UHGV virus genome: UHGV-0114643
Length of the DNA stretch: 33,753 nt
From: a virus
Direction: 5' to 3' (one strand)
Below, piece by piece: positions 9,405 through 19,270 of this stretch. The position numbers were made by a program, and so were the translations under genes. The notes below the pieces were generated by a model. That model was not told the origin of the DNA. It saw only the letters and a program-made list of their open reading frames with translations, and ran no database searches. Each line of letters opens with the position of its first letter. Position 1 is the first letter of the stretch.

Positions 9405-10289
9405 TCAACCTCCTACTGCGTTAATAACCACCTTGGCAGATTGGGATGTGATTGAGCCACCTACACCAGTTACAACACAAGAGTAAGTACCTTCATCATC
9501 AGCTTTAGAAGTCGGTGTCTTTTCATATGTTGCAGATGTTGCTGAAGGGATATCTACATCATCTTTCTTCCACTGATAACCAGTTGCACCAGTGGCTACG
9601 ATGCCAAGGGTGAGTGTATCTCCCTCTGTAATCTCTTGGTTAGTAGGTTGCTGTGTAATCACAGGCAGTGCATTCACAGTTACTGTGGCAGCGTTGGAAT
9701 TAACACTTGAGCCACCTTCACCAGAAACTACACAGGTGTATGCGCCAGCATCAGTAGGGACTACGCCATTCTTAGTATATGTTGCAGAGGTTGCTCCAGA
9801 GATGTTTGATGCACCTTTCTTCCACTGATAACCAGTTGCACCAGTAGCAACAACTGAAAGTGTAAGTGTTCCACCCTCGTTAACAGTTTGGTCAGTTGGC
9901 TGCTGTGTAATAACTGGAGGTGTGATTGCATCCTTCAACTTTGCATTAAGCATGGAGAAAGGTTTAACCCTTGCCAACCATTCACAATAAACTGTGTCAA
10001 CATCCTTCCCATTGATGATTGCATACTGCAAGTCCATGAAGAAGTCAGCAGTCCTCATCTGAGCACCAACTGAATATAAAAGTTCTTCACTAAATGGAAC
10101 TGTGTAGTCTGGTGTGTAATTGAAGTCAGTAACTTCTGGAATATCAGACTCAGGCCACGGTGAGCTATATGTCAGAGGCAGAACGGCCTCTTGATACTTT
10201 CTGAAGTCGTATCTTTTGCCAGCTTTAACATTCGCTACAAAGTCTTTAACGAACTCTTTAAAATCTGGATATGTCTTTGCTTTAATCAT
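9405..10289 (-). CDS. protein with N-terminal domain paralogous to the next gene plus two tandem Ig-like repeats (~85 aa each, TGATGYQWKK ... SATSATY ... CVV.G.GGS)
   Basis: Internal protein repeat and ~248-bp DNA direct repeat read from sequence; ATGA overlap with upstream gene. Confidence 0.6.
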   Translation of the reverse strand: MIKAKTYPDFKEFVKDFVANVKAGKRYDFRKYQEAVLPLTYSSPWPESDIPEVTDFNYTPDYTVPFSEELLYSVGAQMRTADFFMDLQYAIINGKDVDTVYCEWLARVKPFSMLNAKLKDAITPPVITQQPTDQTVNEGGTLTLSVVATGATGYQWKKGASNISGATSATYTKNGVVPTDAGAYTCVVSGEGGSSVNSNAATVTVNALPVITQQPTNQEITEGDTLTLGIVATGATGYQWKKDDVDIPSATSATYEKTPTSKADDEGTYSCVVTGVGGSITSQSAKVVINAVGG

Positions 10290-13771: not shown

Positions 13772-13789
13772 AAAGTTTTAAAAAGGGTA

Positions 13790-13818
13790 TTGACAAAGTG
13801 TTTAATACCCTTTAATAT
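13790..13818 (+). promoter_or_regulatory. sigma70-like promoter (TTGACA-N17-TAATAT), overlapped by a 9-bp inverted repeat (AAGGGTATT / AATACCCTT)
   Basis: Consensus hexamers with canonical spacing, read directly. Confidence 0.5.
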
Positions 13819-13879: not shown

Positions 13880-13909
13880 TTGACAGACACTAAAAAATAG
13901 TGTTATAGT
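13880..13909 (+). promoter_or_regulatory. sigma70-like promoter (TTGACA-N18-TATAGT) about 30 nt upstream of the first tRNA
   Basis: Consensus hexamers read directly. Confidence 0.5.
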
Positions 13910-13936: not shown

Positions 13937-14016
13937 CTCCGTTTAGCTCAGTTTGGTTTAGCAGCACTTGCTTTGGGAGCAAGGGGTCGAGGGTTCAAAT
14001 CCTTCAACGGAGACCA
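13937..14016 (+). tRNA. tRNA-Pro (anticodon TGG), CCA encoded
   Basis: 7-bp acceptor stem CTCCGTT/AACGGAG, T-arm GAGGG-TTCAAAT-CCTTC, anticodon loop TTTGGGA. Confidence 0.8.
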
Positions 14017-14022
14017 AATTAT

Positions 14023-14100
14023 ATTCCCGTAGACAAATTAGGTAAAGTCAACACCCTTTCAAGGTGTGGTTTGAGGGTTCAAGTCCCTTCGGGAATGCCA
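14023..14100 (+). tRNA. tRNA-Glu (anticodon TTC), CCA encoded
   Basis: Perfect acceptor stem ATTCCCG/CGGGAAT, T-arm, anticodon loop CTTTCAA. Confidence 0.85.
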
Positions 14101-14107
14101 GTTTTGA

Positions 14108-14177
14108 CAGAAGACCAATTACAGCAAACAAACTTTTCAATTTCGCGCATAGAAATCCAAAAAAGATTTGGTCTGGT
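14108..14177 (+). repeat. inter-tRNA element a (CAGAAGACC ... GGTCTGGT family); candidate small structured RNA
   Basis: Shares 5' (CAGAAGACC-N-ACAGCAA) and 3' (GGTCTGGT) ends with three other spacers; terminal 5-bp helix AGACC/GGTCT. Confidence 0.6.
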
Positions 14178-14187
14178 CATTAAGAAT

Positions 14188-14264
14188 TGCGGGTATAGAG
14201 AAAGGGTGTCTCACATGTCTCATTAGCATGTTATCGGTAGGTTCGACTCCTACACCCGCCTCCA
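14188..14264 (+). tRNA. tRNA with CAT anticodon (Met, fMet or Ile2), atypical (U1:C72 mismatch, U at position 37)
   Basis: Acceptor TGCGGGT/ACCCGCC, T-arm GTAGG-TTCGACT-CCTAC, anticodon arm CATGT-CTCATTA-GCATG, CCA encoded. Confidence 0.55.
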
Positions 14265-14270
14265 AATTTA

Positions 14271-14336
14271 CAGAAGACCGTTTACAGCAAACACTTAAAA
14301 TTTTTTATAGGAAAAAATGAAAAGATACGGTCTGGT
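14271..14336 (+). repeat. inter-tRNA element b (CAGAAGACC ... GGTCTGGT family)
   Basis: Direct repeat of the element termini. Confidence 0.6.
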
Positions 14337-14347
14337 AATACTAATAT

Positions 14348-14424
14348 GGTTAGGAAGCACATAAGGCATGTGCGGTCGGCTGTTAACCGAATGGTACAGG
14401 GTTCGAATCCCTGACTAACCGCCA
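14348..14424 (+). tRNA. tRNA-Asn (anticodon GTT)
   Basis: Acceptor GGTTAGG/ACTAACC, D-stem GCAC/GTGC, anticodon loop CTGTTAA, T-arm CAGGG-TTCGAAT-CCCTG, CCA encoded. Confidence 0.8.
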
Positions 14425-14493
14425 AGATTTGGGAGAGAAGTGATTGCTCACCGATTTGTAAGGTGCAAGTCCTTAGCCTGAATAGAATAAAAT

Positions 14494-14581
14494 GCGTCGT
14501 TATCCCGTAGATGGAAGCGGTGGTGACTGTAAATCACTTGTCATTATGACTCGGTAGGTTCGACTCCTTCACGGCGCACCA
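14494..14581 (+). tRNA. tRNA-Tyr (anticodon GTA), long variable arm
   Basis: Acceptor GCGTCGT/ACGGCGC, anticodon arm GGTGA-CTGTAAA-TCACT, variable-arm hairpin, T-arm, CCA encoded. Confidence 0.8.
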
Positions 14582-14587
14582 AATAAA

Positions 14588-14664
14588 GGTTATGTAGTTT
14601 AACTGGTCAAAATACCTCCCTGTCACGGAGGATGATGAGGGTTCGAATCCCTTCGTAACCGCCA
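14588..14664 (+). tRNA. tRNA-Asp (anticodon GTC)
   Basis: Acceptor GGTTATG/CGTAACC, D-stem GTTT/AAAT, anticodon arm CCTCC-CTGTCAC-GGAGG, T-arm GAGGG-TTCGAAT-CCCTT, CCA encoded. Confidence 0.85.
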
Positions 14665-14725
14665 AATTTGAGAGGGCTTGTTAGCCCCTCCCTTAAAGAG
14701 TTCTTACGAGTATTCTTTAAAGGAG

Positions 14726-14800
14726 CAGAAGACCAAATACAGCAAGCAATTTTAATATTTCAAGCCAATTTAATTTGAAAAATTTAAAACTTGGTCTGGT
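14726..14800 (+). repeat. inter-tRNA element c (CAGAAGACC ... GGTCTGGT family)
   Basis: Direct repeat of the element termini. Confidence 0.6.
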
Positions 14801-14813
14801 TCCAACAATTTTA

Positions 14814-14940
14814 CAGAAGACCGTTTACAGCAAACAATAAACAATCTATTTCTCTGGTAAAGAAAAGGCGAAGGTTCGATTCCTTCACACGTTACGGCGT
14901 GTTGGTGTAATGGAAGCACTTAAGATAAATACGGTCTGGT
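14814..14940 (+). repeat. inter-tRNA element d (127 nt) with internal T-arm mimic (GAAGG-TTCGATT-CCTTC) and D-arm-like hairpin; candidate Y-RNA-like ncRNA
   Basis: Same termini as a-c; tRNA-like motifs present but no acceptor stem pairing, so not a tRNA. Confidence 0.5.
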
Positions 14941-15089
14941 AATCCTCTTTGCAGTGACTTATGGAGCTAATATGTCGTCCCATGAGTGCCGATGAGTTTC
15001 TTGAGCATGATTCTAGATTAGCTTACTAAGAGACAACTCTACAAACCCTTTAGCAAGGTTTGCGTAGGTTACTGCAAAGATGATTTAAT

Positions 15090-15165
15090 GGAAGTGTAGC
15101 AGAATGGTGATGCGGCAGACTTTTAATCTGACAGGCGACGGGTTCGAATCCCTCCACTTCTACCA
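15090..15165 (+). tRNA. tRNA-Lys (anticodon TTT)
   Basis: Acceptor GGAAGTG/CACTTCT, anticodon loop CTTTTAA, T-loop GGGTTCGAATCCC, CCA encoded. Confidence 0.8.
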
Positions 15166-15246
15166 AATTCGCCCCTTAACTGAAGAACACATGCGCGGCT
15201 GGAAACACCCACTCAATCAGTTCTCTACAAAGGGGCAACTTATAAT

Positions 15247-15323
15247 GGTTCAGTCGCAGATAAGGTAATGCAAGGGTTTCATAAGCCCTATGAATGTGGG
15301 TTCGATTCCCACCTGAACCTCCA
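15247..15323 (+). tRNA. tRNA-Met (anticodon CAT; could be initiator or Ile2)
   Basis: Perfect acceptor GGTTCAG/CTGAACC, anticodon arm AGGGT-TTCATAA-GCCCT, T-arm GTGGG-TTCGATT-CCCAC, CCA encoded. Confidence 0.8.
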
Positions 15324-15325
15324 AT

Positions 15326-15400
15326 TGTGGGTTAGCATAAATGGTAATGCAAACGGCTGATAACCGTTAGAAGAGGGTTCGATACCCTCACCTACAACCA
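15326..15400 (+). tRNA. tRNA-Ile (anticodon GAT)
   Basis: Acceptor TGTGGGT/ACCTACA, D-stem GCAT/ATGC, anticodon arm AACGG-CTGATAA-CCGTT, T-arm GAGGG-TTCGATA-CCCTC, CCA encoded. Confidence 0.85.
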
Positions 15401-15414
15401 ATTTCATAAAGTTG

Positions 15415-15443
15415 TTGACATTCAGATGTGACCACTTTAAGAT
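15415..15443 (+). promoter_or_regulatory. internal promoter-like element (TTGACA-N17-TAAGAT) inside the tRNA array
   Basis: Exact -35, 17-nt spacer, 4/6 at -10. Confidence 0.35.
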
Positions 15444-15676
15444 AACCTTAGTTTTCGTTAGCGTAGCGTCTATTTTAAAAACTTAAAAATAAATGCAAAC
15501 GATAATGTTTTTCTGGCAGTAGCTTAATAGGCTAAACACCAGCAGGGTATTCCAACTCCCTGTTAAAGAATTTGGCGTACTAGCCCACGGTATGATTAAT
15601 AAAGTGGGCAATATTCTAAAGAGCATCCCTTAAGGGGCTTGGCTTAAATGCAATGAGTGCTCTTTAAAATATTAAT

Positions 15677-15752
15677 GCTCCGTTAGTCTAAAGGATAGGC
15701 AACTGTCTTCTAAACAGTTCATATATAGGTTCGAGTCCTATACGGAGTGCCA
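15677..15752 (+). tRNA. tRNA-Arg (anticodon TCT)
   Basis: Acceptor GCTCCGT/ACGGAGT, D-stem GTCT/AGGC, anticodon arm ACTGT-CTTCTAA-ACAGT, T-arm ATAGG-TTCGAGT-CCTAT, CCA encoded. Confidence 0.85.
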
Positions 15753-15813
15753 ATTCTAATGGTCAAGACAACACGAGTAAGTTATCTTAGATACGCGTTA
15801 AGAGATAAACGAA

Positions 15814-15881
15814 AGTCGGAAAGTTGCTGAAGGGTAGCTCCCTTCGATAGTAAGTAGGTTCGACTCCTACCTTGACTGCCA
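15814..15881 (+). tRNA. tRNA-like element, probably degenerate or interrupted (canonical T-arm and 3' end with CCA, but no D-arm; a perfect 5' acceptor partner GGTCAAG lies at 15761-15767)
   Basis: T-arm GTAGG-TTCGACT-CCTAC and 3' strand CTTGACT-G-CCA; only 65 nt from the nearest 5' partner, 118 nt from the perfect one. Confidence 0.3.
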
Positions 15882-16046
15882 AATAGTTAGCAGATTACTA
15901 CGACGACCTTTATGGGTCTCCGCATTGACTTGAAAGAGTCAATCTCATAAGGAGGTGGTCTGTATCTCATGTTTTCCAGAACATGTAAATAATCTGAGAA
16001 GAAGCTTGACAGTGTTGAGATAACAGGGTAAGCTTCGAAATATAGT

Positions 16047-16129
16047 ATGGGACGATGTTAAGACACTAAGGCATGTGCGTAAGCCTCCAAAACTTACTCA
16101 AAGGGGTTCGAATCCTCCGTCCCATGCCA
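16047..16129 (+). tRNA. atypical tRNA, candidate tRNA-Trp (CCA inside a 9-nt anticodon loop CCUCCAAAA; D region ~7 nt too long)
   Basis: Perfect acceptor ATGGGAC/GTCCCAT, T-loop GGGGTTCGAATCC, CCA encoded; Trp is the only amino acid otherwise missing from the array. Confidence 0.45.
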
Positions 16130-16142
16130 AAGTCTTATTAGG

Positions 16143-16230
16143 GGTAGGTAGCGGCTAATGGAAGCCAAACTGTCTTGAAAACAGTTGCCATTGTAGAGAT
16201 ACGGTGAGGGTTCGACTCCTTTATCTACCG
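16143..16230 (+). tRNA. tRNA-Ser (anticodon TGA), long variable arm; 3' CCA not encoded (CCT follows)
   Basis: Acceptor GGTAGGT/ATCTACC, anticodon arm ACTGT-CTTGAAA-ACAGT, 20-nt variable arm, T-arm GAGGG-TTCGACT-CCTTT. Confidence 0.75.
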
Positions 16231-16485
16231 CCTAATAAGATTTAAAGCTGAGACTCGCTGTTCGGGCAAGTGTTTCAGGTTTCCTCTTCGTGTATTGGCG
16301 TACACGGCACTGGTAAAACACCTAGTAGGTGTCACGGAGAAGAGATAGTATCAAGCTCTCCAAAGGTTCTAGTCACCGGATTAAACAAGACTATGCAAAG
16401 GCCAATAGGTCTTTTTAGAGAATTGTTAAGATGTTTAATACCATTGTTGCTTTGGTGTCTTAGCAGTTCTCTACAAAGATTTAAT

Positions 16486-16562
16486 GCACCTATAGCCCAA
16501 CTGGAAGAGGCAGCAGACTTAGAATCTGCTCAGTGTGAGTTCGAATCTCTCTAGGTGTACCA
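16486..16562 (+). tRNA. tRNA with Leu anticodon TAG, class-II-like D-arm but short variable loop
   Basis: Acceptor GCACCTA/TAGGTGT, anticodon arm GCAGA-CTTAGAA-TCTGC, discriminator A, CCA encoded. Confidence 0.7.
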
Positions 16563-16569
16563 AATTAAT

Positions 16570-16645
16570 GCAGGTGTAGCAAAATGGTTATGCGGCTGAC
16601 TCTTAATCAGTAAGACGATGGGTTCAATTCCCTCCACCTGTACCA
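16570..16645 (+). tRNA. tRNA-Lys (anticodon CTT)
   Basis: Acceptor GCAGGTG/CACCTGT, anticodon loop CTCTTAA, T-loop GGGTTCAATTCCC, CCA encoded. Confidence 0.8.
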
Positions 16646-16651
16646 AACAAT

Positions 16652-16727
16652 GGGGATGTAGTTTACATGGTTAAAACATAAGTTTTGCAAACTTAAGTAC
16701 AGGGTTCAATTCCCTGCTTCTCCACCA
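16652..16727 (+). tRNA. tRNA-Ala (anticodon TGC) with G3:U70 identity pair
   Basis: Acceptor GGGGATG/CTTCTCC, D-stem GTTT/AAAC, anticodon arm TAAGT-TTTGCAA-ACTTA, T-arm CAGGG-TTCAATT-CCCTG, CCA encoded. Confidence 0.85.
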
Positions 16728-16733
16728 ATTAGT

Positions 16734-16808
16734 GCATCCATAGTTTAAACGGGAAAATTACAGTCTTCCAAACTGAGGTTGAGGGTTCGATTCCCTCTGG
16801 ATGCTCCA
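16734..16808 (+). tRNA. tRNA-Gly (anticodon TCC)
   Basis: Perfect acceptor GCATCCA/TGGATGC, anticodon loop CTTCCAA, T-arm GAGGG-TTCGATT-CCCTC, CCA encoded. Confidence 0.85.
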
Positions 16809-16814
16809 AATAAT

Positions 16815-16890
16815 GCTCTTATCGTATAATTGGCTATTACGGTTGCCTTGTAAGCAACTTATCAGGGTTCGAATCCTTGTGGGAGCACCA
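16815..16890 (+). tRNA. tRNA-Thr (anticodon TGT)
   Basis: Acceptor GCTCTTA/TGGGAGC, anticodon arm GTTGC-CTTGTAA-GCAAC, T-arm CAGGG-TTCGAAT-CCTTG, CCA encoded. Confidence 0.85.
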
Positions 16891-16987
16891 ATTTTGAGGT
16901 CAAGTGAAAGACCGCTTGAGTCAACTGAAGACCGTAACAAATTCCACGGAGTTGAGTTAGCGGCACAGCTTCAGACCTCTTTTCAAA

Positions 16988-17062
16988 GCTCGCTTAGTTT
17001 ATATGGTAAAGCCCCATCCTTACAAGTTGGTGAAGAAGGTTCAAGTCCTTCAGCGAGTACCA
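16988..17062 (+). tRNA. tRNA-Val (anticodon TAC)
   Basis: Acceptor GCTCGCT/AGCGAGT, D-stem GTTT/AAGC, anticodon loop CTTACAA, T-arm GAAGG-TTCAAGT-CCTTC, CCA encoded. Confidence 0.75.
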
Positions 17063-17063
17063 A

Positions 17064-17141
17064 GTTCCAGTATCCCAATTGGCAGAGGATGCAAGCTCAA
17101 ACCTTGTATTAGTGACGGTTCGAATCCGTCTTGGAACACCA
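17064..17141 (+). tRNA. tRNA with Leu anticodon CAA, class-II-like D-arm (3-bp stem, CAATTGGCAGA loop) but short variable loop
   Basis: Acceptor GTTCCAG/TTGGAAC, anticodon arm GCAAG-CTCAAAC-CTTGT, T-arm GACGG-TTCGAAT-CCGTC, discriminator A, CCA encoded. Confidence 0.7.
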
Positions 17142-17156
17142 AATTAGGAGATTCCT

Positions 17157-17369
17157 ATGAAGCCTTATGGTAGACATGGTAAAGTTGAAATTGCAAGTTG
17201 TGGTTGCTGTGCTTCTCACGATGGTGAAGAAGATTACTACAAGTGGCGTACAGACCATCGTAAACGCTTTCTCAGAAGAGATAAGAAGAAAGCTAGACAG
17301 GAATCTCGAAAGAATATTGCAGAATTAGTTCAAATGGATAGAACAGCAATCTACGAAGTTGTTTGTTAG
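17157..17369 (+). CDS. small basic Cys-containing hypothetical protein, 70 aa; last ~17 codons overlap tRNA-Arg
   Basis: ATG with AGGAGA 7 nt upstream; ORF in track; overlap makes the true extent uncertain. Confidence 0.35.
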   Translation: MKPYGRHGKVEIASCGCCASHDGEEDYYKWRTDHRKRFLRRDKKKARQESRKNIAELVQMDRTAIYEVVC

Positions 17370-17395
17370 GGGTTCGAATCCCTTATTCTGCACCA
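17319..17395 (+). tRNA. tRNA-Arg (anticodon ACG)
   Basis: Perfect acceptor GCAGAAT/ATTCTGC, D-stem GTTC/GAAC, anticodon arm GCAAT-CTACGAA-GTTGT, T-arm AGGGG-TTCGAAT-CCCTT, CCA encoded. Confidence 0.8.
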
Positions 17396-17413
17396 ATTTT
17401 AGAAGGTAATTAT

Positions 17414-17641
17414 ATGCGTAAACTCATTATTGAAAGGCATAAAGATGCTGACAAGATTGAAACAACACAAGTTGGGGACACTGACTTCATTCTTGTAGGT
17501 TGGAAATGTGACCCAATAGCAGCTATGAAGGTTGTTCATGGTTTTGCAGGAATTGAATTTAATCAAATCATATTTGAAACGCTATTACCAGAAAATCAGG
17601 ATACGTGTAATAACGCATATGTCCTGACAAGAGTTCGTTAG
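17414..17641 (+). CDS. hypothetical protein, 75 aa (paralogue A: MRKLIIERH ... DTCNNAYVLTRVR); start moved to the ATG with a proper RBS
   Basis: About 60% identical to 17686..17913; AGAAGG upstream of ATG. Confidence 0.5.
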   Translation: MRKLIIERHKDADKIETTQVGDTDFILVGWKCDPIAAMKVVHGFAGIEFNQIIFETLLPENQDTCNNAYVLTRVR

Positions 17642-17667
17642 GGGTTCGAATCCCTTATTCTGCACCA
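17633..17667 (+). pseudogene. tRNA 3' fragment (T-arm + acceptor 3' strand + CCA), identical to the 3' end of tRNA-Arg(ACG); duplication scar
   Basis: 30 of 31 nt identical to 17365-17395; no complementary 5' acceptor strand or D-arm upstream. Confidence 0.55.
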
Positions 17668-17685
17668 AATTTAAAAGGGTAACTT

Positions 17686-17913
17686 ATGTTTAAACTCATA
17701 GTTGAAAAACACCCAGAAGATGACAAGCTTGAAACAGGGAGATTTGGAGATACTTTCTTTATCAGAGTTGGCTGGAAAGCTGACCCATTAGAAGTTAGAA
17801 AGATTGTCTACAACTTTGCTGGTTTGGAATTAAAGCAAGTCATCTTTGAAACAATGTTGCCAGAAAATAAAGATACATGCAATAACGCATATATTCTTAC
17901 AAGAGTTAGTTAG
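17686..17913 (+). CDS. hypothetical protein, 75 aa (paralogue B: MFKLIVEKH ... DTCNNAYILTRVS)
   Basis: ORF in track; AAGGG upstream; paralogous to 17414..17641. Confidence 0.5.
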   Translation: MFKLIVEKHPEDDKLETGRFGDTFFIRVGWKADPLEVRKIVYNFAGLELKQVIFETMLPENKDTCNNAYILTRVS

Positions 17914-17987
17914 GGGATTAGTTTACAAGGTTAAAACCTCGGTCTTTGAAATCGAAGAAGTTGGTTCAATTCCAACATCCCCCGCCA
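17912..17987 (+). tRNA. tRNA-Gln (anticodon TTG); starts inside the stop codon of the preceding ORF
   Basis: Acceptor AGGGGAT/ATCCCCC (A1:C72), D-stem GTTT/AAAC, anticodon arm TCGGT-CTTTGAA-ATCGA, T-arm GTTGG-TTCAATT-CCAAC, CCA encoded. Confidence 0.8.
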
Positions 17988-17989
17988 AT

Positions 17990-18068
17990 GCTCCATTACT
18001 CCAATTGGCAGAGAGGCCAGACTTAAAATCTGTGTTATGTATCGGTTCGAATCCGATATGGAGTACCA
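17990..18068 (+). tRNA. tRNA with Leu anticodon TAA, class-II-like D-arm but short variable loop
   Basis: Perfect acceptor GCTCCAT/ATGGAGT, D-arm CTC-CAATTGGCA-GAG, anticodon arm CCAGA-CTTAAAA-TCTGT, T-arm ATCGG-TTCGAAT-CCGAT, discriminator A, CCA encoded. Confidence 0.7.
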
Positions 18069-18074
18069 AATATT

Positions 18075-18150
18075 AGCAGTGTAGCATAACTGGCAATGCT
18101 CCAGCCTCTGAAGCTGAATGATTAAGGTTCAAATCCTTACGCTGCTGCCA
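18075..18150 (+). tRNA. tRNA-Gln (anticodon CTG)
   Basis: Acceptor AGCAGTG/CGCTGCT, D-stem GCAT/ATGC, anticodon loop CTCTGAA, T-arm TAAGG-TTCAAAT-CCTTA, CCA encoded. Confidence 0.8.
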
Positions 18151-18181
18151 CTTCTAAGGGTTCTTACGAGAGTCCTTAAAT

Positions 18182-18255
18182 GTGGCCTTATCATAAATGG
18201 ACAATGACCCATGCTGTGAACATGGTCTATACGGGTTCGATTCCCGTAGGTCACC
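18182..18255 (+). tRNA. tRNA-His (anticodon GTG); 3' tail reads C-CCCCA rather than N-CCA and no obvious G-1
   Basis: Acceptor GTGGCCT/AGGTCAC, perfect D-stem TCAT/ATGA, anticodon arm CCATG-CTGTGAA-CATGG, T-arm ACGGG-TTCGATT-CCCGT. Confidence 0.7.
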
Positions 18256-18267
18256 CCCCAATTCAAT

Positions 18268-18343
18268 AGCTCAATTAGCTTATATGGTTAAAGCGCGTGT
18301 CTGAAAAACATGAGAACAGGGTTCAAATCCCGATGGGCTACCA
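18268..18343 (+). tRNA. tRNA-Phe (anticodon GAA), acceptor/T-stem register ambiguous
   Basis: D-stem GCTT/AAGC, anticodon arm CGTGT-CTGAAAA-ACATG, T-loop GGGTTCAAATCCC, 3' ...ACCA. Confidence 0.6.
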
Positions 18344-18359
18344 ATTTTATAGGTGCATA

Positions 18360-19094
18360 ATGAAAGAGATGACAGAACAAGGTAAAGAGATTTTTGGTCT
18401 CCTTAAATCTGGTAACGGGTTCTCTAACCCTCTTATTACTGGTGCAGCAGTTCTTGGTGGTACTGTAGCTGCCTCTCAATCATTAGTTAACTCAATTAGT
18501 TCTGTAACAGACCCAGCTACACAACAGATTTTAGTTGCTGCTGGACTGACAACAGCCTTATTAGGAAGCTTCACAACAAGCCTTGGAAGGACAACTTCAA
18601 CGACAAGTACACTCACTGAGTATGGACAAAAGTCTGTAGATGAGTTTTCACAACGTATGCAAGTAGCTAAGGGTTACTCTAATGTTATGGGAGCAGCAGG
18701 TGAACAGGTTGGATGTACACCGTTTAGTGGTATCATGGGCGTAGCTACCGAGTACGGTAATAAAGCGATGGATTTGATTAATACCTCCATAGACGCTGTA
18801 AATAGCGTTCTAAGCGATTTGCAAGATGCAATCGACCAAGGACTAGATACAATCTCTGAACTCGCTACACAGGCCGTTACAGCGATTAATGAGGGTATTG
18901 CAAAGATTACTGCATATGCTAATGAAGTAACTCAGATGATTGCAGATGAAGCAGCACTGATTGCAGAATACCTGAAAACAAATATTAATGGTTTCCTTGC
19001 GAATGTTCTACCAAGCTGGTTTGATGATTCATGTAAAACTGGTGTGATTGACACTATCGCAACTCCAGAGATGAAAGAAGCTCTGAACAAATAA
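18360..19094 (+). CDS. hypothetical protein (~244 aa), Ala/Thr/Ser/Gly-rich with hydrophobic N-terminal segment; start moved downstream of the tRNA
   Basis: Track ORF began inside tRNA-Phe; ATG at 18360 has AGGTG upstream. Confidence 0.5.
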   Translation: MKEMTEQGKEIFGLLKSGNGFSNPLITGAAVLGGTVAASQSLVNSISSVTDPATQQILVAAGLTTALLGSFTTSLGRTTSTTSTLTEYGQKSVDEFSQRMQVAKGYSNVMGAAGEQVGCTPFSGIMGVATEYGNKAMDLINTSIDAVNSVLSDLQDAIDQGLDTISELATQAVTAINEGIAKITAYANEVTQMIADEAALIAEYLKTNINGFLANVLPSWFDDSCKTGVIDTIATPEMKEALNK

Positions 19095-19095
19095 C

Positions 19096-19188
19096 GGAAG
19101 ATTAACCCTAAAAGGTAAGGGAGCAGTTTGCTAAACTGCCAGTAACCGAGAAATCGGCGTACCAGTTCAAGTCTGGTATCTTCCTCCA
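19096..19188 (+). tRNA. tRNA-Ser (anticodon GCT), long variable arm
   Basis: Perfect acceptor GGAAGAT/ATCTTCC, 3-bp D-stem, anticodon arm GCAGT-TTGCTAA-ACTGC, T-arm ACCAG-TTCAAGT-CTGGT, CCA encoded. Confidence 0.8.
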
Positions 19189-19194
19189 AATTAT

Positions 19195-19270
19195 GTGTCG
19201 GTGTCAGAAATGGTTATGTCCCTGTCTGCAAAACAGGTTTATGAGGGTTCGAGTCCCTTCCGATACTCCA
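19195..19270 (+). tRNA. tRNA-Cys (anticodon GCA)
   Basis: Acceptor GTGTCGG/CCGATAC, anticodon arm CCTGT-CTGCAAA-ACAGG, T-arm GAGGG-TTCGAGT-CCCTT, CCA encoded. Confidence 0.8.

What the first reader, a model, noticed from the sequence alone, without database searches (positions are those of the whole stretch)
14693..14720. Conserved hairpin with 14-nt loop GTTCTTACGAG.. recurring after tRNAs
TTAAAGA-GTTCTTACGAGTAT-TCTTTAA at 14693-14720 and TAAGG-GTTCTTACGAGAGT-CCTTA at 18155-18178 have different stems but the same loop (GTTCTTACGAG). Stem covariation with a fixed loop argues for a functional RNA hairpin, such as a nuclease processing site or protein-binding site. The first copy is preceded by a further GC hairpin (14670-14692).
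Basis: seen in the sequence. Interest (0 to 1): 0.45.

Follow-up and report, generated by a model that had tools for sequence, protein, structure and literature searches.

The report
Conserved tetraloop RNA hairpin beside phage tRNAs
The two sites are real copies of a small, conserved RNA hairpin (a 10-12 bp stem capped by a UACG tetraloop, not a 14-nt loop) that is shared by several unrelated groups of virulent enterobacterial phages, usually just upstream of a tRNA, and that most likely marks or protects RNA ends in tRNA-region transcripts, although its function has never been tested.

Summary
Both copies fold into a continuous stem (copy 2 has 10 bp; copy 1 has 11 bp plus one U.U) capped by a UACG tetraloop. 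The "fixed loop" is the upper stem plus that tetraloop.

The window is a Felix O1-like (Mooglevirus-type) phage. About 245 relatives keep both copies, and every substitution seen preserves pairing (A-U/G.U/G-C; UACG to UGCG).

The same roughly 30-nt hairpin occurs on the transcribed strand in unrelated phages: T5-like Demerecviridae (hundreds of records, 17-19 bp), phiEco32-like Kuravirus (1-3 copies), a Grimontviridae phage and Erwinia Kolesnikvirus. The lower stems covary. It is absent from 5,426 E. coli genomes and from Rfam.

In T5 it is the 3'-terminal stem-loop of the annotated "RNAX, stable RNA with unknown functions", a few nt before tRNA-Arg. In the window, copy 2 ends 3 nt before tRNA-His.

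Best reading (inferred, not shown): an RNA punctuation and 3'-end-protecting hairpin next to RNase P sites. Rivals are an RNase III site, a sequence-specific protein site, or a DNA-level recombination module. It is a new member of a known kind, of moderate interest.

The parts
14693..14720 (+). Hairpin copy 1: UUAAAGAGU(U)CU-[UACG]-AG(U)AUUCUUUAA, 11 bp plus one U.U mismatch; tetraloop at 14705-14708; can extend to 14690-14723
   Evidence: Sequence; RNAfold; hairpin scan; covariance model R1 46.7 bits (it was in the training set); orthologues show A-U / G.U / G-C at the 14699:14714 pair and UACG to UGCG
18155..18178 (+). Hairpin copy 2: UAAGGGUUCU-[UACG]-AGAGUCCUUA, 10 contiguous bp including G.U and U.G; tetraloop at 18165-18168; one further pair U18153-A18180 beyond a C.A mismatch
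   Evidence: Sequence; RNAfold -13 kcal/mol with flanks, z = -3.0; R1 48.3 bits; orthologues G.U to A-U and U.G to U-A
14670..14690 (+). GC-rich hairpin GAG(A)GGGCU-UGUU-AGCCCCUC directly 5' of copy 1. It travels with copy 1 in all Felix-like relatives whatever lies upstream. A similar GC hairpin precedes copies in a Kuravirus-like contig, and the flank resembles the T5-like one.
   Evidence: RNAfold; relatives; L190 copies 2 and 3; flank similarity AAUUUGAGAGGG vs AAUCUGAGGGGG
18075..18150 (+). tRNA-Gln(CUG). Its 3' CCA ends 4 nt before copy 2. Its T-stem UAAGG/CCUUA has the same sequence as the lower stem of copy 2.
   Evidence: ARAGORN; Rfam 60 bits; sequence
18182..18257 (+). tRNA-His. Its 5' end, the expected RNase P site, lies 3 nt after the last contiguous pair of copy 2.
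   Evidence: ARAGORN; Rfam 49.1 bits
14588..14664 (+). tRNA-Asp, upstream neighbour of the GC hairpin + copy 1 module in this phage. In some relatives an ORF or another tRNA lies there instead.
   Evidence: ARAGORN; varying upstream contexts
14722..14800 (+). Context only: the spacer element CAGAAGACCAAAUACAGCAAGC...UUGGUCUGG (terminal 7-bp stem AGACCAA/UUGGUCU) that starts 1-2 nt after copy 1; one of four copies in the cluster
   Evidence: the repeat finder families D7, D11, D12; RNAfold

Best explanation
Both sites are copies of a conserved, self-contained RNA hairpin of about 30 nt, transcribed as part of the polycistronic tRNA-cluster RNA. It has an A/U-rich lower stem that is free to covary, a conserved upper stem RUUCU/AGAGY, and a UACG (UNCG-type) tetraloop. 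The same module occurs in several unrelated groups of virulent Enterobacterales phages.

Proposed mechanism (inferred, not shown): it is a punctuation and end-protection element.
1. It sits a few nucleotides 5' of a tRNA, so RNase P cleavage at that tRNA leaves the upstream RNA ending in a stable stem-loop with only a 1-10 nt tail.
2. That shields the upstream RNA from 3'-to-5' exonucleases.
3. It also keeps the tRNA 5' leader from pairing with neighbouring sequence.

In T5-type phages this would make it the 3'-terminal stem-loop of the annotated stable RNA 'RNAX'. In the window, copy 2 is the whole spacer between tRNA-Gln and tRNA-His. Copy 1, with its GC hairpin, closes the tRNA-Asp block.
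For: Structure
- RNAfold gives extended stems with 4-nt loops.
- On 15 distinct members the 12-pair helix is 92.2% paired, against 35-61% for slid controls. Five pairs change on both sides, and 0 of 500 shuffles reach the covariation score.
- Orthologue changes are all pair-preserving.
- Upper-stem compensatory changes occur in an untrained Kuravirus-like copy, GUCUU-UGCG-AGGAU, at 31.9 bits.

RNA level
- It is co-oriented with genes in all six lineages.
- The covariance model scores 40-48 bits on the sense strand and 12-14 on the antisense strand.
- The sense strand folds better in 11 of 13 members.

Distribution
- About 245 Felix-like records carry each copy.
- T5-like phages: 436-494 records match the block.
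- Also Kuravirus, a Grimontviridae phage and Erwinia Kolesnikvirus.

Position
- 3 nt before tRNA-His in the window.
- 5-6 nt before tRNA-Arg in T5-likes.
- About 9 nt before tRNA-Leu in the Erwinia phage.

Link to a stable RNA
- GenBank AJ604531 and RefSeq NC_005859 annotate the RNA that ends at tRNA-Arg as 'RNAX, stable RNA with unknown functions'.
- The model hits its last 40 nt at 40 bits.

That hairpins with short 3' tails block RNase II and PNPase, and that RNase P defines the 3' end of the upstream fragment, is established E. coli RNA biology (my knowledge, not tested here).
Against: - No RNA ends were mapped. The 'RNAX' limits in GenBank may themselves be inferred from promoter and tRNA positions.
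- A protective hairpin 4 nt after the CCA of tRNA-Gln would hinder rather than help 3' maturation of that tRNA.
- A purely structural role does not explain why the upper stem and the 3' arm (AGAGUUCUUAAA) stay nearly invariant across unrelated phage families.
- In the Grimontviridae phage and some T5-likes the hairpin precedes an ORF by about 25 nt, not a tRNA.
- The closing pair of the tetraloop is U-A, not the C-G of the extra-stable cUNCGg class.
- The computed stabilities of the window copies are modest, about -8 kcal/mol.
Confidence: 0.42

Rival explanations
1. RNase III processing site. The hairpin is cut by host RNase III to separate transcript segments, as in T7 early mRNAs and in phage T4 tRNA maturation.
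For: T5-type versions are near-perfect 17-19 bp duplexes. Copy 2 with its flanks folds as a 10-bp upper stem, a 3x3 internal loop and a 4-bp lower stem, reminiscent of T7 sites. It is intercistronic, about 25 nt before start codons in two lineages. E. coli RNase III takes part in T4 tRNA maturation (PMC4810235).
Against: The RNase III valley takes about 22 bp (PMC6212723), and the window copies are only 10-12 bp. The 4-bp 'lower stem' of copy 2 uses bases that belong to the acceptor ends of two tRNAs. RNase III has weak sequence specificity, so it does not explain the invariant core. If the stem were cut, T5 RNAX would not end at the tRNA as annotated.
Confidence: 0.15
2. Sequence-specific binding site for a host or phage factor: an RNA-binding protein, a modification enzyme such as TadA (which needs UACG in a loop), or a defence or toxin nuclease for which it acts as a decoy.
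For: The core RUUCU-UACG-AGAGY and the 3' arm are nearly invariant across four or more unrelated phage families, while the lower stem drifts. The Grimontviridae phage and the window share 27 of 28 nt, including unpaired flanking bases. The element is confined to phages of Enterobacterales. UUACGAG matches 6 of 7 positions of the TadA motif YUACGAA (PMC12255301).
Against: The loop varies within the family (UGCG, UCCG, CACG, UAUA) and the upper stem can covary, which argues against strict sequence read-out and against TadA. Single changes in the 7-base TadA motif nearly abolish editing. Covariation supports a 4-nt loop, not a 7-nt one. No candidate protein was identified. The downstream genes in two lineages are unrelated.
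Confidence: 0.15
3. DNA-level module: a short recombination or junction sequence, comparable to T4 promoter-early stem-loops, or the footprint of a mobile element, spread by exchange between co-infecting phages and without an RNA function of its own.
For: The hairpin is an island of conservation with unrelated flanks in different lineages. It sits where content varies: upstream of copy 1 in Felix-likes and upstream in Kuravirus, and downstream in T5-likes, where ORFs are inserted between the hairpin and tRNA-Arg. Only the hairpin of the 785-nt RNAX is shared with the other phages.
Against: The changes are the RNA-type ones (G.U intermediates). The orientation always matches transcription. There are only 1-3 copies per genome. 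No promoter adjoins it. It is absent from 5,426 E. coli genomes, and in the scan of species-representative bacterial genomes it appeared only in a mis-binned phage contig and one terminator-like chance hit.
Confidence: 0.1
4. Relic of the 3' end of a small mobile ORF. In frame the core reads VLTRV, like the C-termini ..YILTRVS* and ..YVLTRVR* of the paralogous ORFs 17686-17913 and 17415-17641.
For: ATTCTTACAAGAGT at 17893 matches the copy 2 core at 12 of 14 positions.
Against: By my estimate, about 0.02-0.2 such matches are expected by chance. A stop codon lies directly upstream in frame at copy 1. The hairpin is conserved with compensatory changes in lineages that lack these ORFs.
Confidence: 0.03

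Closest known systems
3'-terminal stem-loop of phage T5 / BF23 / phage 5 'RNAX' (rnaX, annotated 'stable RNA with unknown functions', NC_005859 40848-41566; AJ604531 12898-13682)
   Same: Homologous hairpin: the covariance model built without T5 sequences scores 40 bits at the last 40 nt of RNAX. It has the same core (GUUUU-UACG-AGAGU), the same A/U-rich lower stem, the same orientation, and lies a few nt 5' of a tRNA.
   Different: The T5 stem is 17-19 bp; the window copies are 10-12 bp. The other roughly 750 nt of RNAX have no counterpart in the window. The downstream tRNA is Arg(UCU), not His. RNAX itself has no known function.
Extra-stable UNCG tetraloop hairpins of phage intercistronic regions (T4 C(UUCG)G hairpins, Tuerk et al. 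1988; from my own knowledge)
   Same: Short intercistronic RNA hairpins in virulent coliphage transcripts, capped by a UNCG-type tetraloop (UACG, with natural variants UGCG and UCCG).
   Different: The closing pair is U-A, not C-G. The stem is A/U-rich. The family shares a specific stem sequence across phage families. Some T5-like members have CACG or UAUA loops.
RNase III processing hairpins of T7 early mRNA and of T4 tRNA precursors
   Same: Intercistronic position, upstream of RBSs or tRNAs. The long duplex in T5-type members and the internal-loop fold of copy 2 with its flanks.
   Different: The window stems are about half the length RNase III normally needs. No cleavage data exist.
Rho-independent terminators
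   Same: Stem-loop with A-rich 5' and U-rich 3' flanks. One chance look-alike in a marine MAG (AGGGUUCU-UACG-AGAGCCCU + UUUUUUG) looks like a genuine terminator.
   Different: Only 2-3 U follow the stem and the stem is G+C-poor. It is not picked up by the terminator scan. It lies between tRNAs that must be co-transcribed.

Membership tests
T5-type RNAX 3' hairpin module | Hairpin homologous in sequence and structure to the stem-loop at the 3' end of annotated rnaX | tested here: met
   R1 (trained on Felix, Kuravirus, Grimontviridae, Erwinia and one Epseptimavirus copy) hits T5 and phage 5 RNAX 3' ends at 40 bits, E about 1e-9. Blastn of RNAX nt 746-776 against window 18152-18180 and 14693-14721.
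T5-type RNAX 3' hairpin module | Rest of the RNAX gene (promoter P16-17, about 750 nt body with pseudo-tRNA) present upstream | tested here: not met
   Only the hairpin is shared, so the window holds the module, not an rnaX gene.
T5-type RNAX 3' hairpin module | The RNA accumulates as a stable species ending after the hairpin | not testable with these tools
   Needs Northern blotting or end mapping. The GenBank note is the only evidence, and only for T5-type phages.
cUNCGg extra-stable tetraloop hairpin | Loop sequence UNCG | tested here: met
   UACG in both window copies. Variants UGCG (L047) and UCCG/UGCG (L190). However, CACG and UAUA occur in some T5-likes.
cUNCGg extra-stable tetraloop hairpin | C-G closing base pair | tested here: not met
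   The closing pair is U-A in all members.
Intrinsic (Rho-independent) terminator | G+C-rich stem followed by a U-tract (at least 5 U in 8) | tested here: not met
   Neither copy is reported by the terminator scan. The tails are UUUAAAGG and UUAAAUGU.
E. coli RNase III substrate | About 20-22 bp of (quasi-)continuous dsRNA | tested here: not met
   10 and 11(+1) bp in the window. T5-type members reach 17-19 bp. The requirement is from PMC6212723.
E. coli RNase III substrate | Staggered cleavage in the stem, lost in rnc mutants | not testable with these tools
   Experimental.
TadA (tRNA-Arg A34 deaminase) RNA substrate | YUACGAA motif presented in a 7-nt anticodon-like loop | tested here: not met
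   UUACGAG matches 6 of 7 positions. Covariation supports a 4-nt loop. Family members have UCCG, UGCG, CACG and UAUA loops. The motif is from PMC12255301.
Any Rfam family | Score at or near a family's gathering threshold | tested here: not met
   Only tRNA matches reach any family's gathering score; targeted E-value scans of both hairpins give nothing at E up to 10, and the cluster-wide scan at E up to 0.5 gives only tRNAs and weak sub-threshold hits elsewhere.
T4-type promoter-early stem-loop (PeSL) cassette | Stem-loop coupled to an adjacent sigma-70 early promoter, with many copies per genome | tested here: not met
   No promoter-like site at or next to either copy. Only two copies in the window, the next best R1 hit being 15 bits.

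The most novel reading that the evidence does not exclude
The hairpin is a portable RNA signal of about 30 nt. It has been exchanged horizontally among at least four unrelated families of virulent Enterobacterales phages (Ounavirinae, Demerecviridae, Gordonclarkvirinae, Grimontviridae). It is read sequence-specifically by one shared factor, either a host RNase or RNA-binding protein or a host defence nuclease for which it is a decoy, and so controls the fate of tRNA-region and early transcripts. The invariant RUUCU-UACG-AGAGY core would be the recognition element.
Probability: 0.2. Interest if true: 0.65.

Novelty: new member of a known kind. Interest (0 to 1): 0.4.

Why it matters
Phage tRNA clusters are currently studied mainly for their tRNAs, for example for evasion of tRNA-targeting defences. 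The non-tRNA RNAs and spacers in them, such as the T5 'stable RNAs with unknown functions', have been left unexplained for decades.

This work gives three things:
- A small, clearly defined and easily mutated motif that links the Felix O1-type, T5-type, phiEco32-type and other phages.
- A handle on how the 3' end of T5 RNAX is made.
- A concrete, testable case of either RNA-end protection next to RNase P sites or recognition by a shared factor.

It also adds a candidate RNA family that is not in Rfam. If it proves to be only a structural spacer, the finding is ordinary.

Tried and rejected
1. Large-loop model. Rejected by folding and by pair-preserving variation in the supposed loop.
2. Relic of the C-terminus of the small ORFs at 17415-17913 (VLTRV). 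Considered because of a 12/14 match at 17893. Rejected because of covariation in lineages that lack these ORFs.
3. Operator of a shared downstream gene. The genes after the Grimontviridae-phage and bobsandoy copies are unrelated.
4. Copy of a host element, or prophage-borne.
   - No match in 5,426 E. coli genomes.
   - Only two matches in the scan of one representative genome per species (185,579 species, 596 billion bases). One is a mis-binned Kuravirus contig and the other a terminator-like chance hit.
5. Intrinsic terminator, or a promoter-linked cassette. Not supported.
6. Rfam families. None match.
7. TadA substrate, or mimic of the tRNA-Arg(ACG) anticodon loop. Attractive because of UACG and the natural UGCG variant. 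Disfavoured by loop variants and loop size.
8. Resemblances recalled from memory and not pursued: the 8-mer UACGAGAG shared with the 23S sarcin-ricin loop (an 8-mer match to rRNA is expected by chance), lambda nutR boxA (GCUCUUAC vs GUUCUUAC, but sequestered in the stem), and the Kid/PemK site UUACU.
9. Full-text search for the core sequence found nothing relevant. Searches on phiEco32/SU10, Felixounavirus and T5 transcript mapping gave no data on this element.
10. An IMG/VR family 'AUGUAUA-GUUCUUACGAGAGU-UAUAAG' lies antisense to coding sequence and was not counted. Weak R1 hits in L053/L065 look like coding sequence.

Full report
**What the window is.** The window carries a 5.4-kb cluster of 25 tRNA genes on the + strand, at 13937-19270 (Rfam agrees). 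Megablast puts it among Felix O1-like phages of the Moogle/Shigella Sf13-19 type: 96% identity to Citrobacter phage BSwM KMM2, and 357 matching phage records.

**Checking the observation.** The 11-mer GTTCTTACGAG occurs only there.
- A repeated 11-mer is not unusual in itself. The window has 744 repeated 11-mer pairs, and shuffles give 224 +/- 16. But this is the only pair whose two copies are both flanked, in the same register, by at least 5 Watson-Crick pairs.
- The GC hairpin before copy 1 is real, at 14670-14690.
- Copy 1 begins 29 nt after tRNA-Asp.
- Copy 2 occupies the 31-nt spacer between tRNA-Gln(CUG) and tRNA-His. This spacer stands out because neighbouring tRNAs in the tightly packed blocks are mostly 1-10 nt apart.

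**The architecture is different from what was described.** RNAfold pairs most of the supposed 14-nt loop.
- Copy 2 is UAAGGGUUCU-[UACG]-AGAGUCCUUA, ten contiguous pairs including G.U and U.G.
- Copy 1 is UUAAAGAGU(U)CU-[UACG]-AG(U)AUUCUUUAA, eleven pairs and one U.U mismatch.
- So the 'fixed loop' is an upper stem plus a UACG tetraloop.

Relatives support this. In 30 Felix-like IMG/VR loci, the pair at the top of the lower stem of copy 1 is A-U, G.U or G-C. In copy 2, G.U becomes A-U and U.G becomes U-A. The only loop change is UACG to UGCG. About 245 GenBank Felixounavirus/Mooglevirus records carry each copy.

**The hairpin is not confined to this phage group.** A 32-nt query found it in several other groups, always in unannotated, apparently intergenic sequence and on the same strand as the flanking genes.
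- A Grimontviridae phage, PKM.Lu.22.1: CUAAGGGUUCUUACGAGAGCCCUUAAAU, 27 of 28 nt identical to copy 2.
- phiEco32-like Kuravirus: AAGGAUUCUUACGAGAGUCCUU.
- T5-like Epseptimavirus: UAAGAGUUCUUACGAGAGUUCUUAAA.
- Erwinia Kolesnikvirus: AAAGGUUCUUACGAGAGUCUUU.

The lower stem covaries (AAGG/CCUU, AAGA/UCUU, AAAG/CUUU, AAAGA/UCUUU), while RUUCU-UACG-AGAGY stays fixed.

On an alignment of 15 distinct members, the 12-pair helix is 92.2% paired, against 35-61% for slid controls. Five pairs change on both sides, and none of 500 shuffles reaches the covariation score.

A covariance model built from them found further copies that were not in the training set:
- Two more in a Kuravirus-like contig. One has a UCCG loop. 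The other has compensatory changes in the upper stem itself (GUCUU-UGCG-AGGAU, 31.9 bits).
- A shorter one in the Grimontviridae phage (AAGGGUUC-UACG-GAGCCCUU).

In the window there are only the two copies; the next best hit is 15 bits.

**Where it is absent.**
- Not in 5,426 E. coli genomes.
- In the scan of one representative genome per bacterial and archaeal species (185,579 species, 596 billion bases), the pattern occurs twice. One hit is a Kuravirus contig binned into a MAG. The other is a terminator-like hairpin in a marine MAG, within chance expectation.
- No Rfam family matches.
- A full-text search for the core sequence found nothing relevant.

**The T5 connection.**
- Blasting the Epseptimavirus region showed that several hundred T5-like phages carry a longer version of 17-19 bp. 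They include Tequintavirus, Epseptimavirus, Klebsiella Sugarlandvirus and Yersinia phiR2-01.
- An example is GUAUUUUUAAGAGUUUU-UACG-AGAGUUCUUAAAAAUAC.
- Changes among them preserve pairing. Their loops are UACG, CACG or UAUA. RNAalifold returns the 18-bp helix.
- In most T5-likes the hairpin ends 5-6 nt before tRNA-Arg(UCU). In some, an ORF has been inserted between the hairpin and the tRNA.
- GenBank AJ604531 (phage 5 tRNA gene region) and the T5 RefSeq NC_005859 annotate the RNA running from promoter P16-17 to the 5' end of that tRNA as 'rnaX, RNAX, stable RNA with unknown functions'. The model hits the last 40 nt of RNAX at 40 bits.
- Only this hairpin, and no other part of the 785-nt RNAX, is shared with the window, Kuravirus or the Grimontviridae phage.
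- The same records annotate several other stable and tRNA-like RNAs of unknown function in the T5 tRNA region. Non-tRNA RNAs in phage tRNA clusters are therefore a known but unexplained class.

**RNA or DNA level.**
- The element is co-oriented with transcription in all six lineages.
- It uses G.U pairs, and evolves through G.U intermediates.
- The covariance model scores 40-48 bits on the sense strand and 12-14 bits on the antisense strand.
- The sense strand is computed to be the more stable in 11 of 13 members. Copy 1 and the Erwinia copy are the exceptions.

**Mechanism.** What is shown: this is a selected RNA hairpin, in tRNA-region or early transcripts, usually 3-10 nt 5' of a tRNA (window copy 2, T5-likes, Erwinia) or about 25 nt 5' of a start codon (the Grimontviridae phage, and T5-likes with inserted ORFs).

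What is inferred: RNase P cleavage at the downstream tRNA would leave the upstream RNA ending in this stem-loop with a very short tail. In E. coli such a structure resists RNase II and PNPase (established knowledge, not tested here). That would explain why T5 RNAX is 'stable'. The hairpin would also insulate the tRNA leader. I give this about 0.4.

Weak points of this reading:
- It does not explain the near-invariance of the core across families.
- A protective hairpin directly after the CCA of tRNA-Gln seems counter-productive.

Rivals:
- RNase III site. Plausible for 17-19 bp T5-type stems, and RNase III has a T4 tRNA precedent (PMC4810235). But 10-12 bp is far below the roughly 22 bp the enzyme spans (PMC6212723).
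- Sequence-specific protein site. The TadA idea (YUACGAA in a stem-loop; PMC12255301) is disfavoured by the loop variants.
- DNA-level junction module. The hairpin lies at borders between conserved and variable sequence, but the RNA-type substitutions and the fixed orientation argue against it.
- It is not terminator-like, and it has no adjacent promoter.

**Comparison with what is known, and novelty.** The closest known object is the 3' stem-loop of T5 RNAX, which is homologous as a module, although the window has no rnaX gene. By kind it belongs with the stable UNCG-capped intercistronic hairpins of virulent coliphages and with processing hairpins. It differs in three ways: a U-A closing pair, an A/U-rich stem, and a core sequence shared across unrelated phage families. 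I found no description of this motif. I rate it a new member of a known kind and of moderate interest. It would be more interesting if the conserved core proves to be read by a specific factor.

Noticed in passing
window 14100-14177, 14263-14336, 14718-14800, 14806-14946: Four copies of a spacer element with a conserved 5' end ACAGAAGACC(N3)TACAGCAAACA, an A/T-rich middle and a conserved 3' end (A/T)(C/T)GGTCTGGT. The ends form a 7-bp stem (AGACCNN/NNGGTCT), like an acceptor stem. Each lies between tRNAs or after hairpin copy 1 (families D7, D11, D12; folds). The fourth contains a T-arm and scores 28.8 bits as tRNA, against a gathering score of 29.
   Followed up: partly
window 17319-17913: tRNA-Arg(ACG) is followed by two paralogous small ORFs: 17415-17641 (..NAYVLTRVR*) and 17686-17913 (..NAYILTRVS*). 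The first ends inside a duplicated 3' half of tRNA-Arg (17630-17668, similar to 17360-17395). This looks like insertion of a mobile ORF with duplication of its target.
   Followed up: partly
window 14496-14582: A probable tRNA-Tyr (anticodon GTA, long variable arm, 7-bp acceptor stem) is missed by ARAGORN and scores only 22.8 bits in Rfam. Relatives have an annotated tRNA-Tyr here.
   Followed up: partly
window 15760-15876 and 16046-16133: Two tRNA-like stretches were not called as tRNAs. Each has a T-arm and an acceptor 3' end with CCA (..GTAGGTTCGACTCCTACCTTGACTGCCA and ..GGGGTTCGAATCCTCCGTCCCATGCCA) plus a matching 5' strand. The first is about 115 nt, as if it carried an insertion. They recall the 'tRNA-like RNAs with unknown functions' annotated in the T5 tRNA region.
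   Followed up: no
window 15218-15232 and 16464-16478: The exact 15-mer CAGTTCTCTACAAAG occurs twice, 7-14 nt upstream of a tRNA in each case (tRNA-Met 15247, tRNA-Leu 16486) (family D14).
   Followed up: no
window 15340-15581: Weak sub-threshold Rfam matches to permuted tmRNA (34.7 bits against a gathering score of 47, E = 2e-4) and alpha-tmRNA (20.3 bits). They overlap tRNA-Ile and the non-coding stretch after it. Probably driven by the tRNA-like part.
   Followed up: no
window 18181-18260: As read from the sequence, tRNA-His has U rather than G at position -1. Its 3' end reads ..GGTCAC-CCCCC-AA, so neither G-1 nor an in-register CCA appears to be encoded. Some relatives annotate this gene as tRNA-OTHER or pseudo.
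   Followed up: no
window 18128-18144 vs 18155-18178: The T-arm stem of tRNA-Gln(CUG), TAAGG/CCTTA, has the same sequence as the lower stem of hairpin copy 2 just downstream. Alternative pairing between the two is possible. There is no variation among relatives with which to test it.
   Followed up: partly
window 13782-13818 and 13880-13909: Two strong sigma-70-like promoters lie ahead of the tRNA cluster (10/12 and 11/12 matches). The first lies largely within a 12-bp hairpin, AAAGGGTATTGACAAAGTGTTTAATACCCTTT.
   Followed up: no
L199 (AJ604531) and L200 (NC_005859): The T5-type tRNA regions are annotated with at least five 'stable RNAs with unknown functions' (RNA I, III, IV, 2H, X) and three 'tRNA-like RNAs'. 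RNAIII abuts the 5' end of tRNA-His. RNAX contains a pseudo-tRNA.
   Followed up: partly
L190 (Kuravirus-like contig) 10124-10200, minus strand: In one copy the 5' arm of the hairpin (UUUUUUAAGAG) is also the U-tract of a GC-rich, terminator-like hairpin directly upstream (GGGCC..GGCCGC-UUUUUU).
   Followed up: no
L194 (Klebsiella phage vB_Kpn_AM_K4, PP355766, 288,685 bp, filed under Straboviridae): This record carries a T5/Sugarlandvirus-type RNAX-end hairpin and tRNA-Arg block. The record length is close to that of a T4-like genome plus a T5-like genome, so the record may be a chimeric assembly.
   Followed up: no
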